64,000 bases of DNA from Candidatus Saccharimonadota bacterium (GTDB lineage: Bacteria > Patescibacteriota > Saccharimonadia > Saccharimonadales > JAQGHD01), in contig JAQGHD010000019.1 of the NCBI GenBank assembly GCA_028288965.1, positions 25,202-89,201 on the forward strand, in the 5' to 3' direction. The position numbers and the translations under genes are program-made. This document shows, in pieces, positions 39,594 to 43,378 of this stretch (position 1 is the stretch's first letter; each line of letters opens with the position of its first letter). The notes under the pieces are model-generated. The model was not told where the DNA came from, ran no database searches, and saw only the letters and a list, made by a program, of their open reading frames with translations.

Positions 39594-39914
39594 TTACGCC
39601 GCCGTTCTGGATGCCTGCGATCTCGCAGCATGCCACAAGAAATAGGCAAGCGCGGCGAAGATCACACCCAGGATGTTGCGCCAGGTGATTGACCGGAAGA
39701 ATGCCCAAAGCAGGAGCATGGCCGAAGCGAAGTAGAGCACGCAGGTAGCCAGCGCATTCTTCGTCAGTTCGTACGTCTCGTACCCAGCGATCGCGACGAC
39801 CACGGCAAAGAGCACGACGAAAAGTGTGCCGGCGTTGTGGCCAGAAACCAGTTGGTGCACGCTGATGAGGCCGGCGACCAAGGCGGCGATGTAGGTAATG
39901 AACTTGGGACTCAT
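39594..39914 (-). CDS. Small membrane protein (GC-rich segment)
   Basis: 106 aa, 3 hydrophobic helices; local GC content is clearly above that of the flanks. Confidence 0.4.
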   Translation of the reverse strand: MSPKFITYIAALVAGLISVHQLVSGHNAGTLFVVLFAVVVAIAGYETYELTKNALATCVLYFASAMLLLWAFFRSITWRNILGVIFAALAYFLWHAARSQASRTAA

Positions 39915-39939
39915 AACATGTCTCCTTGGTAGGGAACGA

Positions 39940-40248
39940 TCAGCGGCCGGAAGGCCGGACAGGTTGGCGAAGCAGACGACGCTGGTCGCGCACGCGGTTG
40001 CGGTGATCGAGATCGAGTGCCAGCCACATGATGACTGCCATGCCTAGGGCAATGGCTGCGATCGAGGCAGGCCTGAGCACGATGCTGTGAGGTTGGTGAT
40101 CGGCCAGGGCCGAAGCAATCTCGCAGAAGGCCGCGGGCAACAGCAAGCTGAGGCCGGTACGCCGCTTGTTCAGTTTGACGATGCAGACCCATGCCAGAGC
40201 AGCAAATGGGATGGCCAAAACAGCAAAGGCGGTACTGTCACTCATGAA
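39940..40248 (-). CDS. Small membrane protein (GC-rich segment; start at internal Met of the 39940..40335 ORF)
   Basis: MSDSTAFAVLAIPFAALAWVCIV...; hydrophobic. Confidence 0.35.
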   Translation of the reverse strand, partial: FMSDSTAFAVLAIPFAALAWVCIVKLNKRRTGLSLLLPAAFCEIASALADHQPHSIVLRPASIAAIALGMAVIMWLALDLDHRNRVRDQRRLLRQPVRPSGR

Positions 40249-40551
40249 TGAGCACTTCCTTTCCGGTTGGTGTAACAGGGAACTTGTGAAGGTTCTTTGG
40301 AGCAACTGCTCGACAAAGTATAGATATAATGGCATAAAATACTAAAAATATCAATGTTTGGGTGAGGCGACTATACCATGGCAGCAAGTAGACTACGGGC
40401 TTACTATGCCCACATTTTTTATAAGTTGTGCCGAAAATCACAAAGCTTATGCCAATTAGTTCACAGCTATTTTGCTTATGCTGTGGAAAGATTAAGACGG
40501 CTTATGCTTGCTATTCGGAGAAAAGAGGATAAAGATGTGGGGGAGAAAAGC

Positions 40552-40986
40552 ATGAATTCAATCAGTGCGTATGACGTCGCTAACGTCTTTGCTAAGCTGA
40601 CAGATATTGATTCTGGAGAGGTTTTAACGAACCTAAAAATCCAGAAGCTTGTTTACTACGCCCAAGGTTTTCACCTTGCAATGTTTGATAAGCCTCTTTT
40701 TAACGACCCTATTGTTGCGTGGGAGCATGGCCCTGTTGTTGAAGATTTGTACCACAAGCTAAAGGAGCATAAGTCATCACCAGTAATGATAGCTGGCGCA
40801 ATCAACAAAGACATCTCCACTGAACAAATTGAACTCCTTGTAGAGGTCTACGATGTTTACGGTCAGTTTTCAGCATGGAAACTCAGAGACATGACCCATA
40901 ACGAAACTCCTTGGGCAACAACACCAAAAGGTTACGTGATTACTCACGCTAAACTCAAAACATACTTCAAGAATCAGCTCCAGTAA
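40552..40986 (+). CDS. Panacea-domain (DUF4065) protein, antitoxin-like
   Basis: KIQKLVYYAQGFHLAMFDKPLFNDPIVAWEHGPVVEDLY is the hallmark block of the Panacea/SocA-like domain; strong SD GGGGGAG upstream. The ORF-track start at 40378 is probably too far upstream. Confidence 0.6.
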   Translation: MNSISAYDVANVFAKLTDIDSGEVLTNLKIQKLVYYAQGFHLAMFDKPLFNDPIVAWEHGPVVEDLYHKLKEHKSSPVMIAGAINKDISTEQIELLVEVYDVYGQFSAWKLRDMTHNETPWATTPKGYVITHAKLKTYFKNQLQ

Positions 40987-41420
40987 TGGATAGACGGCAT
41001 CCGCCTAAGCCGAAGAAAATGAAGGGCGTTTCGTTCAATCAGTCTCAAGTTAGAGTAGCTGAGTCCGCTAGTGCGCATAAGTCTGACCACCCAATATTTT
41101 GTTTGAGATATTTAGTAAATGGATACGACCTAGAGAAATGTGATAAAGAGCAAGCACACTTCTTCGTGAAGAAACTAGCAAATATGGCTCAATTATCATG
41201 GACAGCATTATTGCTTGGTGACCATAAAAGTGGGCTTGGTTTTGAGCCATTACCCAAGGACCAAATAAAAGCCCCATTGCCTGCAATTGTGACCAAGGAT
41301 ATAACTAGTATGCAAGTTATAAGATTTAAGCGTGACTACAGAATTATAGGTTTCAGGAGTGACGATACCTATAGAATTACACATATAGAGTTAGACAGGA
41401 GTGCTTATGACCACGGTTGA
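40986..41420 (+). CDS. Hypothetical protein, candidate toxin partner (C-terminus faintly RelE/ParE-like)
   Basis: Start overlaps the upstream stop (TAATGG), so co-transcribed with the Panacea gene; C-terminal RIIGFRSDDTYRITHIELDRSAY loosely resembles the RelE/ParE RxIY..d....i.i..HRxdxY end. Confidence 0.3.
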   Translation: MDRRHPPKPKKMKGVSFNQSQVRVAESASAHKSDHPIFCLRYLVNGYDLEKCDKEQAHFFVKKLANMAQLSWTALLLGDHKSGLGFEPLPKDQIKAPLPAIVTKDITSMQVIRFKRDYRIIGFRSDDTYRITHIELDRSAYDHG

Positions 41421-41462
41421 TAAGTATATAATATAGGTATGAGCAAGAAACTATTCAAACGA

Positions 41463-41711
41463 CTAATCAAACGTGCTTCCCAGCCCGTCCCAAAAGAACA
41501 AGGTAAATCGGTACAGTCCTGAAGTTATAATAAAAACAAAACTGGTTAAGGTAAGACTCTGTAGGTACTTCGGGCTAACGGCGTGATGAGTGCCATCTAT
41601 TGACCGCTTTAGTTGGCTCCAAAAGCCCTCGATGGTGTTGGTGTGGACGTTGCCACGTATATATTCAAGCGTTGAATGATTAACCGTTGTGTGGTTGCAG
41701 CCCGCTTGCAT
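41463..41711 (-). pseudogene. IS1595-family transposase remnant (C-terminal fragment only)
   Basis: NTIEGFWSQLKRSIDGTHHAVSPKYLQ is the conserved C-terminal block of IS1595-family DDE transposases; no N-terminal catalytic region is present upstream. Confidence 0.55.
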
Positions 41712-41725
41712 TCAGAAAAATGATT

Positions 41726-41800
41726 CGCTTTCGCTCTTTTGAGCTCATCAGTATGAATACACATTCATAAAACGAAAACGACAAATAGACAGAGATAAAG
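41726..41800. repeat. ~75-bp direct repeat, copy 1 (CGCTTTCGCTCTTTTGAGCTCATCAGTATGAATACACATTCATAAA...)
   Basis: Near-identical to 42794..42868. The two copies flank a ~1-kb GC-rich segment. Confidence 0.8.
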
Positions 41801-41900: not shown

Positions 41901-42566
41901 TCAGTTGGCGTCCTGCACAATAAACCCAAACGTCAGGTCATCTTGGTCGCGGAGGTAAGGGAACAGACCCACGTAGGAGGTGCTCAAGCGCCCGGCCGCG
42001 ATCTTGCTGATGACGCTTTCCAGGTGCTGTTTTGCCCGATCTACGTCTGTAACGCGCGTGTCGATGTCCAAGGCTGCTGCCCGGAGTTCGAGCACGTAGC
42101 CCTTGACACCGTCTAGGTCTGTCAATTCGATGGCTACTTGCCTGGTTGCGTCAGCGAAAGCCTGCTGGTCCATGATCTGTTTGGTGATGTGGCTCATTGG
42201 CGTGAACCTTGCAAGGTTGCTGTTGAAGGTGATGATCACCCGGCGGAATGGCCATTCTGTCTGCGGTGTTGCGAGAACACGCTTGTCTCCACGCAAGGGG
42301 AACAAGTCCAACAGATTCTGGGTCGCCCAATCGATGGTAACCTGAACCCACTCTGCAACGGCAGCTGAATTCGTGACGTTGTCACGATACTCAACCGACA
42401 TGTCAAAACGGTTGATGTTGCAGCCAAAGACGCCGTCATGTTGCATAATGCGACCCCTAAGGGGCAGCACTGCATCGCGGTGATCCTCTGAGTTAAAGGT
42501 GCCTGTCTCTTCGTTGATTCCGGTTATAGCCGTATTGAATTCGAACGTGAGAGTCTGATTGGTCAT
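41901..42566 (-). CDS. Hypothetical protein (221 aa, soluble), GC-rich foreign-looking gene
   Basis: SD AGGAG 7 nt before ATG; high GC and GC3 versus the flanks; no recognisable motif. Confidence 0.45.
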   Translation of the reverse strand: MTNQTLTFEFNTAITGINEETGTFNSEDHRDAVLPLRGRIMQHDGVFGCNINRFDMSVEYRDNVTNSAAVAEWVQVTIDWATQNLLDLFPLRGDKRVLATPQTEWPFRRVIITFNSNLARFTPMSHITKQIMDQQAFADATRQVAIELTDLDGVKGYVLELRAAALDIDTRVTDVDRAKQHLESVISKIAAGRLSTSYVGLFPYLRDQDDLTFGFIVQDAN

Positions 42567-42946: not shown

Positions 42947-43378
42947 CTATCCGTTATCGCACAAGCGTGGGGTCTGTTGAGACGCCGGCAGCTTGTTGAA
43001 ACTGAGGATGTTCTTGAACGACGAGAAGAGCGGCACACGCCAACCCTTGATTTGCACGCTGTACGTCGTCTCGGGCTGGATCTTGCCGTAGGCGTCGGCA
43101 GTGTTAAACCGTGTCTTGCCGAACAGCGAGTCCTTCATGACAAACGTGCCACCACTGGTGTAGATGCGGTATTCGCCGCCGTTTTGGGTAGCTACGCGCT
43201 CCTTGCTGCACACCGTCAGCACGCGAGTGCTGATGTGGTTGTAGTTGTGGAAGATGGCAGAGATGCCGACTACGAGGGCCAAAACGACCGCCGCAATGGC
43301 AACTGCACAACCCGCGCCCTGGAAATTCTCTCGACGACGAGCCCGATACTGGTTCGCATCACTAGTTCTCATGGACAT
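42947..43378 (-). CDS. Hypothetical membrane-anchored protein (143 aa; basic N-terminus, one TM, extracytoplasmic domain), GC-rich
   Basis: Very strong SD (GGAGAGGAGAAAGGAAG); TM VAIAAVVLALVVGISAI; the opposite-strand ORF 42932..43507 is low-complexity antisense. Confidence 0.45.
   Translation of the reverse strand: MSMRTSDANQYRARRRENFQGAGCAVAIAAVVLALVVGISAIFHNYNHISTRVLTVCSKERVATQNGGEYRIYTSGGTFVMKDSLFGKTRFNTADAYGKIQPETTYSVQIKGWRVPLFSSFKNILSFNKLPASQQTPRLCDNG

What the first reader, a model, noticed from the sequence alone, without database searches (positions are those of the whole stretch)
40552..41420. Panacea-domain (antitoxin-like) gene translationally coupled to a downstream unknown ORF, a candidate toxin-antitoxin or anti-phage pair
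The Panacea/DUF4065 block (KIQKLVYYAQGFHLAMFDKPLFNDPIVAWEHGPVVEDLY) is characteristic of promiscuous antitoxins that neutralise many unrelated toxins. The partner ORF (TAATGG overlap) has no assignable family, only a weak RelE/ParE-like C-terminus. It could therefore be a new toxin type.
Basis: partly seen in the sequence, partly recalled or inferred. Interest (0 to 1): 0.55.

Follow-up and report, generated by a model that had tools for sequence, protein, structure and literature searches.

The report
Common Panacea antitoxin–RelE-like toxin pair
This is a two-gene Panacea (PanA) plus RelE/YoeB-fold partner cassette in a Saccharibacteria genome; the partner belongs to a predicted Panacea-associated toxin family that was already catalogued in 2022, so it is not a new toxin type.

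Summary
ORF 40552..40986 is a standalone Panacea/DUF4065 protein (Pfam E 3e-23). Its TAA stop overlaps the ATG of ORF 40986..41420 by one base.

The interpretation "no assignable family, possibly a new toxin type" does not hold.
- The partner belongs to a family with 458 representative clusters.
- The family is almost always found directly downstream of a closely related PanA.
- It includes Salmonella phage Emek YP_006560566 and the Pedobacter namyangjuensis partner. Kurata et al. 2022 list both as PanT cluster T1, with about 217 matching rows in a dataset of 1,268 predicted PanAT pairs, labelled "mRNase".
- An alignment-based AlphaFold model (pLDDT 87.7) matches only RelE/YoeB/YafQ/HigB/ParE toxins.
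- The family also matches the C-terminal RNase effector domain (PB-BECR1) of the Menshen defence protein NsnC.

The window protein keeps the best-conserved polar residues (E87, R113, R124, Y141, H143). It lacks two semi-conserved histidines.

The pair sits in a 1.6-kb low-GC islet next to an IS1595 remnant.

Most likely it is a type II-like toxin-antitoxin or abortive-infection module with an RNase toxin. Toxicity is unproven: published tests found two T1 members non-toxic and one toxic but not neutralised.

It is a new member of a known kind, of low to moderate interest.

The parts
40200..41800 (.). Low-GC islet (about 40-42% GC against about 47-60% in the flanks) that carries the two-gene cassette and a transposase remnant. 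It is probably horizontally acquired.
   Evidence: Composition profile.
40540..40545 (+). GGGGAG Shine-Dalgarno-like motif 6 nt upstream of the panA ATG.
   Evidence: Read directly from the sequence. No sigma-70-like promoter was found on the + strand.
40552..40986 (+). panA: a 144-aa standalone Panacea/DUF4065 protein with no HTH or other N-terminal domain. It is the putative antitoxin or sensor.
   Evidence: Pfam PF13274 E 3.1e-23, residues 30-121. phrog_1281 E 3.6e-43. 45% identical to the phage Emek PanA (E 2e-43). 46-66% identical to the PanAs of nine other loci that carry the same partner family.
40984..40988 (+). TAATG stop/start overlap of 1 nt, consistent with translational coupling.
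   Evidence: Homologous pairs show spacings from +12 to -20 nt.
40986..41420 (+). panT, a 144-aa member of cluster T1. Residues 1-35 form a basic, low-confidence N-terminal tail. Residues 36-144 form a RelE/YoeB-like (BECR) domain and are the putative RNase toxin or effector.
   Evidence: phrog_8366 E 3.5e-19. PADLOC NsnC C-terminal positions 187-284, E 2.9e-5, matched by 46 of 62 family members, best 2.6e-11. NCBIfam MAG6450_fam matched by 43 of 62 members. 458 representative homologues. AF2 pLDDT 87.7. Foldseek top hits are YoeB, RelK, YafQ, HigB and ParE2. Conserved residues E87, R113, R124, Y141 and H143 are retained.
41463..41711 (-). Truncated IS1595-family transposase remnant. Its first 50 of 82 aa match positions 93-142 of the 153-position DDE domain profile. 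It flanks the cassette inside the low-GC islet and is not part of the system.
   Evidence: Pfam PF12762 E 5.6e-14.

Best explanation
This is a PanA-PanT(T1) cassette. A standalone Panacea-domain protein (PanA, 40552..40986) is co-translated with a 144-aa partner (40986..41420). The partner has a RelE/YoeB-type (BECR) fold and most likely acts as an RNase, by analogy a translation-blocking mRNA endonuclease. PanA most likely binds the partner directly and keeps it inactive. Loss of PanA, or a trigger such as phage infection, would free the nuclease and arrest the cell. That would make it a type II toxin-antitoxin or abortive-infection logic.

The cassette sits on a small horizontally acquired islet in a Candidatus Saccharibacteria chromosome.

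Shown here: the domain identities, the fold, the obligate gene pairing, membership of cluster T1, and the mobile context. Inferred only: RNase activity, toxicity, direct neutralisation, and any defence role.
For: The Panacea hit is strong.

The partner family is real and large: 458 representatives at E<=1e-3.

The pairing with PanA is consistent.
- PanA is immediately upstream on the same strand for all 8 homologues looked up in the assembly collection.
- The same arrangement is found in E. coli, Salmonella and Pseudomonas phages.
- It is found in 69 of the best 80 PanA-clade loci, out of at least 582 hits in the one-genome-per-species collection. These span Cyanobacteria, Acidobacteria, Bacteroidota, Proteobacteria, Planctomycetes, Firmicutes and several Patescibacteria, including Saccharibacteria.
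- PanA and PanT identities co-vary across loci (Spearman 0.60, 55 non-independent pairs), which suggests inheritance as a unit.

The identity with Kurata's cluster T1 is anchored twice.
- The Emek pair: PanT E 7e-16 and PanA E 2e-43.
- Pedobacter namyangjuensis 5G38: its 8-nt overlap reproduces the Dataset S1 gap of -8.

The fold evidence points one way.
- The AF2 model has pLDDT 87.7 and a b-a-a-b-b-b-b topology.
- The top 25 Foldseek PDB hits are all RelE/ParE-superfamily toxins, with probability up to 0.97.
- The family matches the NsnC C-terminal domain. PMC12065111 places that domain in the BECR RNase superfamily, next to YafQ.

The best-conserved polar residues lie at positions topologically equivalent to the YoeB residues E46, R65, H83 and Y84. 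These are E87 on b2, R113 and R124 on b3 and b4, and Y141 and H143 at the C-terminus. All are present in the window protein. The YoeB residue numbers are from my own knowledge.

Ernits et al. 2023 showed that standalone Panacea neutralises its toxin directly.

The context is mobile: low GC and an IS1595 remnant.
Against: No T1 pair has been validated as a toxin-antitoxin system. In Kurata et al. the E. coli MOD1 and phage Emek T1 proteins were not toxic in E. coli. The Clostridium cadaveris one was toxic but was not neutralised by its PanA.

The fold matches are statistically marginal: Foldseek E 0.02-0.1, and TM about 0.6 only when normalised to the smaller target.

There is no sequence-level link to RelE, YoeB or ParE. 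No Pfam family of that kind is hit, and hhalign against YoeB and YafQ sequences gave nothing.

The window protein lacks two semi-conserved histidines. H82 is replaced by S, with a His two residues earlier in a one-residue insertion. H130 is replaced by R. If the published H-R-H triad of PB-BECR1 uses these positions, the protein could be inactive.

No promoter or terminator was recognised by the consensus scan.
Confidence: 0.6

Rival explanations
1. It is a latent defence effector rather than a classical toxin-antitoxin pair. T1 PanT would be an RNase that is inert on its own and is switched on only by a phage cue. PanA would act as the sensor or activator rather than as a simple inhibitor, so the pair would be a two-gene abortive-infection system.
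For: Two of three tested T1 proteins were non-toxic when over-expressed alone. The domain is homologous to the effector domain of the Menshen anti-phage protein NsnC. T1 pairs sit at moron-like positions in prophages, next to integrases, and beside a restriction-modification system. They are rare on plasmids: 3 of 72,556 records. Ernits et al. proposed that Panacea is a sensor.
Against: No phage-defence phenotype is reported for any T1 pair in the papers read. Non-toxicity may be a construct artefact: the Emek protein as annotated starts at a TTG 22 codons upstream of the likely ATG. One T1 member was toxic alone.
Confidence: 0.22
2. It is a decaying or inert cassette. The pair was brought in with an IS element and is no longer functional in this reduced Saccharibacteria genome, or PanT has lost catalysis.
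For: A truncated IS1595 remnant lies next to it, in a low-GC islet. The window PanT has S82 and R130 where 56% and 62% of the family have His, and E135 where 86% have Asp. No recognisable promoter was found. Only this one sequence exists in its 90% cluster.
Against: Both ORFs are intact and full length with the family-typical stop/start overlap. Most positions conserved at 80% or more (P36, F38, C52, W72, G85, E87, P99, R113, G122, R124, Y141, H143) are retained; I89, F129 and D135 carry conservative L, Y and E. R at position 130 recurs in 10 other family members, and the H80/S82 variant is shared with three others, P0003, P0004 and P0066.
Confidence: 0.1
3. PanT is a ParE-like gyrase poison, or another non-nucleolytic protein of the RelE/ParE fold, rather than an RNase.
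For: ParE2 is among the Foldseek hits. One family member weakly hits Pfam ParE_like at E 0.018. The RelE/ParE fold supports both activities (PMC10440598).
Against: The best fold hits are YoeB, RelK and YafQ. The family keeps an invariant Glu, Arg residues and a C-terminal Tyr-x-His, as RNase members do. It is sequence-related to PB-BECR1, which is classed as an RNase. Kurata et al. labelled T1 as 'mRNase'.
Confidence: 0.06

Closest known systems
PanAT systems, PanT cluster T1 (Kurata et al. 2022, PNAS, PMC8832971), for example the Salmonella phage vB_SemP_Emek pair YP_006560565/YP_006560566
   Same: The two-gene order is the same (PanA first). PanA is standalone ('noNTD'). Stop and start overlap. 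Both proteins are homologous: PanA 45% identity, PanT 27% identity at E 7e-16. The predicted toxin class is 'mRNase'.
   Different: The host is a Candidatus Saccharibacteria MAG. The PanT is divergent: its best relative is 43% identical, and it has S82 and R130 in place of two semi-conserved histidines. The cluster itself has never been validated experimentally.
YoeB, RelE and YafQ ribosome-dependent mRNA endonuclease toxins (RelE/ParE or BECR superfamily)
   Same: The predicted fold and topology match. A Glu, Arg residues and a C-terminal His/Tyr lie at comparable positions (the comparison with YoeB residues is my inference).
   Different: There is no detectable sequence similarity. The protein is about 50 residues longer, with a basic disordered N-terminal tail and an insertion between b2 and b3. 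The partner is Panacea rather than YefM, RelB or DinJ.
Menshen anti-phage system effector NsnC, C-terminal PB-BECR1 domain (PMC12065111)
   Same: Residues 43-144 match the C-terminal 187-284 of the PADLOC NsnC model (E 2.9e-5). 46 of 62 family members match, down to 2.6e-11.
   Different: There is no inPIN N-terminal domain and no NsnA or NsnB genes nearby. The protein is free-standing and paired with Panacea. This link is not mentioned in the Menshen paper: 'Panacea', 'DUF4065' and 'SocA' each occur zero times.
SocAB type VI toxin-antitoxin system of Caulobacter
   Same: SocA carries the Panacea domain.
   Different: The NCBIfam SocA equivalog scores 62 bits against a cutoff of 190. The partner is not SocB. 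A proteolytic-adaptor mechanism is not expected for PanAT pairs.

Membership tests
PanA (Panacea/DUF4065 antitoxin-like proteins) | Pfam PF13274 hit above the gathering threshold | tested here: met
   83.3 bits against a cutoff of 25.7, E 3.1e-23.
PanAT two-gene locus (criteria of Kurata et al.) | Partner within 100 nt, with the architecture conserved in at least two species and no longer operon | tested here: met
   1-nt overlap. The same pair occurs in phages and in many phyla with different flanking genes.
PanAT two-gene locus | The toxin inhibits growth and PanA neutralises it | not testable with these tools
   Published tests on T1 members: two not toxic, one toxic but not neutralised.
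PanT cluster T1 | Sequence homology to listed T1 members | tested here: met
   Emek YP_006560566 at E 7e-16. Pedobacter namyangjuensis 5G38 partner at E 2e-22. Both are T1 rows in Dataset S1.
RelE/ParE (BECR) superfamily | Fold with N-terminal helices packed on an antiparallel beta-sheet, similar to solved members | tested here: met
   AF2 pLDDT 87.7. The top 25 Foldseek PDB hits are all RelE/ParE-superfamily toxins, with probability up to 0.97. E-values are only 0.02-0.1, and TM is about 0.6 when normalised by the target.
RelE/ParE (BECR) superfamily | Sequence-profile match to a RelE, YoeB, HigB or ParE family | tested here: not met
   No Pfam hit for the window protein. One of 62 family members hits ParE_like at E 0.018. 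hhalign against YoeB and YafQ sequences found nothing.
RelE/ParE (BECR) superfamily | Catalytic acid/base residues present | tested here: inconclusive
   E87, R113, R124, Y141 and H143 are conserved and present. H82 and H130 are replaced. No 3D superposition or assay was possible.
Menshen (NsnABC) defence system | NsnC with an inPIN N-terminal domain, plus adjacent NsnA (ParB-DUF262) and NsnB (ABC ATPase) | tested here: not met
   Only the C-terminal effector part of the NsnC model matches. The neighbours are PanA, an IS remnant and housekeeping genes.
NCBIfam MAG6450 family (NF046006) | Score above the curated cutoff of 40 bits | tested here: not met
   19.3 bits for the window protein. 43 of 62 family members match at E<=0.1, best 2e-11, so the family is related but this protein is not a member by NCBI's threshold.
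SocA (type VI antitoxin) equivalog | NCBIfam NF047745 score of at least 190 bits | tested here: not met
   62.1 bits.

The most novel reading that the evidence does not exclude
T1 PanT proteins, including this one, may not be constitutive toxins. They may be latent RelE-fold RNases of the same domain family as the ancestral Menshen effector (PB-BECR1). Their Panacea partner would act as a phage-sensing switch. In that case the commonest Panacea pairing would be a minimal two-gene abortive-infection system, present even in ultra-small Saccharibacteria, rather than a growth-regulating toxin-antitoxin pair.
Probability: 0.2. Interest if true: 0.55.

Novelty: new member of a known kind. Interest (0 to 1): 0.25.

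Why it matters
The locus itself adds only another, rather divergent, example of a catalogued PanAT pair in a Saccharibacteria MAG.

Two side results are of some use.
- The largest uncharacterised Panacea partner cluster (T1) is sequence-related to the RNase effector domain of the Menshen defence system. This suggests one effector domain is reused under two different control modules.
- The published 'not toxic' result for the Emek T1 protein may have used an ORF with 22 spurious N-terminal residues. Cluster T1 therefore deserves re-testing from the correct start and under phage challenge.

Tried and rejected
- The word-indexed homology search with the single PanT sequence found only the protein itself. 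The exhaustive HMMER search was needed.
- A single-sequence AlphaFold model was useless, with pLDDT 42. It was replaced by an alignment-based model.
- phmmer and a family profile against PDB sequences found nothing meaningful.
- The search for related loci with the PanT alignment failed because no stretch was conserved enough. I used the PanA alignment instead.
- The promoter and terminator scan found no + strand promoter for the operon and no terminator after panT. Repeats in and around the cassette were at chance level, with no operator-like palindrome.
- The T1 accessions were not found in the held supplements of the NetFlax paper. A 2026 BECR-classification preprint was listed but could not be read.
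- Rejected: SocAB membership, a Menshen system (no NsnA or NsnB), and the longer 202-aa PanA ORF starting at 40378.
- There is no second copy of either gene in the window.

Full report
**1. The observation**

The region 40552..41420 holds two co-directional ORFs of 144 codons each. ORF1 contains the quoted Panacea block. It hits Pfam PF13274 (SocA_Panacea) over residues 30-121 at E 3.1e-23, 83.3 bits against a cutoff of 25.7. It also hits phrog_1281 at E 3.6e-43.

The mechanical ORF is longer, starting at 40378. ATG 40552 is the better start for three reasons. It is preceded by GGGGAG at a 6-nt spacing. The N-terminus MNSISAYDVANVF aligns with the N-termini of homologous PanA proteins. The 58-aa extension matches nothing in Pfam.

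The stop TAA (40984-40986) shares its last A with the ATG of ORF2.

**2. What the partner is**

ORF2 has no Pfam hit, and the word-indexed protein search found only itself. That record is annotated as a hypothetical protein of a Candidatus Saccharibacteria MAG. It is not an orphan, however.
- It hits phrog_8366 at E 3.5e-19.
- An exhaustive HMMER search found 458 representative clusters at E<=1e-3, almost all 130-150 aa long.
- tblastn found homologues in 12 phage records, from P22-like Salmonella and E. coli phages and from Pseudomonas phages.

In these phages the gene immediately upstream is again a Panacea protein. The same held for all eight metagenomic or genomic homologues whose contigs I looked up, although their flanking genes are unrelated to one another. 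The flanks were:
- a tail tape-measure gene
- a resolvase
- a phosphate-transport operon
- an integrase
- an NgoPII restriction-modification system
- housekeeping genes

I also searched one genome per species with an alignment of the associated PanAs. This gave at least 582 hits. Of the best 80 loci, 69 carry a family-HMM-positive partner directly downstream on the same strand. These 80 loci span many phyla, including Saccharibacteria, Paceibacteria and Moraniibacteriota. PanA and partner identities co-vary across loci (rho 0.60). The two genes therefore form one inherited module.

**3. The module is already catalogued**

Dataset S1 and Table S1 of Kurata et al. 2022 (PMC8832971) list the Emek pair YP_006560565/YP_006560566 as PanA plus PanT cluster T1, predicted 'mRNase'.
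- The window proteins are homologous to both Emek proteins: PanA 45% identity at E 2e-43, PanT 27% identity at E 7e-16.
- A second anchor is Pedobacter namyangjuensis 5G38, a T1 row with gap -8. My locus L047 from that strain has PanA and a family member overlapping by exactly 8 nt. That partner matches the window PanT at E 2e-22.
- The string pT1 occurs 217 times in the dataset. T1 is thus one of the two largest of the 88 clusters among 1,268 predicted pairs.

**4. Fold and likely chemistry**

With a 44-sequence alignment, AlphaFold gave a confident model (pLDDT 87.7). Residues 1-35 are a basic tail of lower confidence. Residues 36-144 form strand-helix-helix followed by four strands.

Foldseek against the PDB returned only RelE/ParE-superfamily toxins among its top 25 hits: YoeB, M. 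tuberculosis RelK, YafQ, HigB, ParE2 and P. horikoshii RelE. Probabilities reached 0.97. The E-values were marginal (0.02-0.1), and TM was about 0.6 relative to the smaller targets.

Independently, the protein matches the C-terminal 100 positions of the PADLOC NsnC model at E 2.9e-5. 46 of 62 family members match it, down to 2.6e-11. That region is the PB-BECR1 domain. PMC12065111 assigns it to the Barnase/EndoU/Colicin/RelE RNase superfamily, with YafQ as its closest structure. 43 of 62 members also match NCBIfam MAG6450_fam.

Across 179 family members the most conserved positions are P36, F38, C52, W72, G85, E87, P99, R113, G122, R124, D135, Y141 and H143.

By position in the secondary structure, three groups of residues resemble the YoeB set E46, R65, H83 and Y84. 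These are E87 on b2, R113 and R124 on b3 and b4, and the C-terminal Y141-x-H143. This comparison rests on my own knowledge of YoeB and is an inference.

The window protein keeps all of these residues. It has S82 where 56% of the family have His, with a His two residues earlier in a one-residue insertion that it shares with three other family members. It has R130 where 62% have His, and E135 where 86% have Asp.

**5. Mechanism**

The best-supported reading is a type II-like PanAT module. A standalone Panacea protein directly binds and silences a RelE-fold RNase. Release of the nuclease arrests translation.

Direct neutralisation by standalone Panacea was shown for other PanAT pairs by Ernits et al. 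2023.

The main caveat is experimental. In Kurata et al. the T1 proteins from E. coli MOD1 and from phage Emek were not toxic in E. coli. The Clostridium cadaveris one was toxic but was not rescued by its PanA.

The Emek ORF as annotated begins at a TTG 22 codons upstream of an ATG (MARKSKRIIPP...) that matches the family N-terminus. The annotated ORF overlaps panA by 62 nt. The tested construct may therefore have carried a spurious extension. This is my inference, not a shown fact.

An alternative that I cannot exclude is that T1 proteins are latent effectors activated by a phage cue, with Panacea as the sensor. Three observations would fit this: the relationship to the Menshen effector, the prophage and defence-island contexts, and the rarity on plasmids, 3 of 72,556 records.

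**6. Context in the window**

The cassette lies in a segment of about 1.6 kb with 40-42% GC, between flanks of about 47-60% GC. A truncated IS1595 transposase remnant lies at 41463..41711 on the minus strand.

The surroundings are housekeeping genes. By my reading of the translations, which I did not test, these are MprF-like, FolD-like, MurI-like and MurD-like. No second copy of either gene occurs in the window. No promoter, terminator or operator-like repeat was recognised.

**7. Verdict**

The locus is a new, divergent member of a known and common predicted PanAT type (T1).

Interest is low to moderate. The residual value lies in three points. Cluster T1 is still unvalidated. The link to the Menshen PB-BECR1 effector is not made in either paper I read. 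A published negative toxicity result may stem from a mis-annotated start.

Noticed in passing
window 41463-41711 (-): Truncated IS1595-family transposase remnant directly downstream of the cassette. Its first 50 of 82 aa match positions 93-142 of the 153-position DDE domain profile.
   Followed up: partly
window 39600-40200: Locally high GC (about 60%) just upstream of the low-GC islet, with overlapping minus-strand ORFs (39940..40335, 39911..40192) that have no Pfam match. It is unclear which of them, if any, is a real gene.
   Followed up: no
window 41901-42566 (-): 221-aa ORF with no Pfam hit, at 52-55% GC, lying between the islet and a small ORF of 143 aa (42947-43378, only a sub-threshold DUF1523 Pfam hit). 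Function unknown.
   Followed up: no
L004 1369-1854 (Salmonella phage vB_SemP_Emek, YP_006560566): The annotated T1 ORF starts at a TTG 22 codons upstream of an ATG (MARKSKRIIPP) that matches the family N-terminus, and it overlaps panA by 62 nt. This accession was the one tested as 'not toxic' in Kurata et al. 2022, so the construct may have carried a spurious N-terminal extension.
   Followed up: partly
L042 2926-3336 (-) (Chloroflexia MAG): Here a T1 family member lies convergent (tail-to-tail) to PanA instead of downstream on the same strand. This arrangement is unusual for the pair.
   Followed up: no
L065 2458-3461 (+) (Desulfobacterales MAG): A PanA of the same clade is followed by two unrelated ORFs of 168 and 166 aa instead of T1. 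This may be a partner swap of the kind described as Panacea hyperpromiscuity. Nine other loci of the 80 (L044, L052, L056, L069, L081, L088, L094, L095, L096) have no T1 partner either.
   Followed up: no
L015 3461-5725: The closest PanA relative (66-67% identity) and its T1 partner sit directly beside an HTH regulator and an NgoPII-type restriction endonuclease plus DNA methylase, that is, in a defence-island-like context.
   Followed up: no
P0186 (202 aa); L017 1738-2481: One family hit (P0186) carries a Panacea Pfam domain in the same 202-aa product, which is either a fusion or a gene-call artefact. One PanA (L017) is called at 247 aa, with an N-terminal extension starting at GTG.
   Followed up: no
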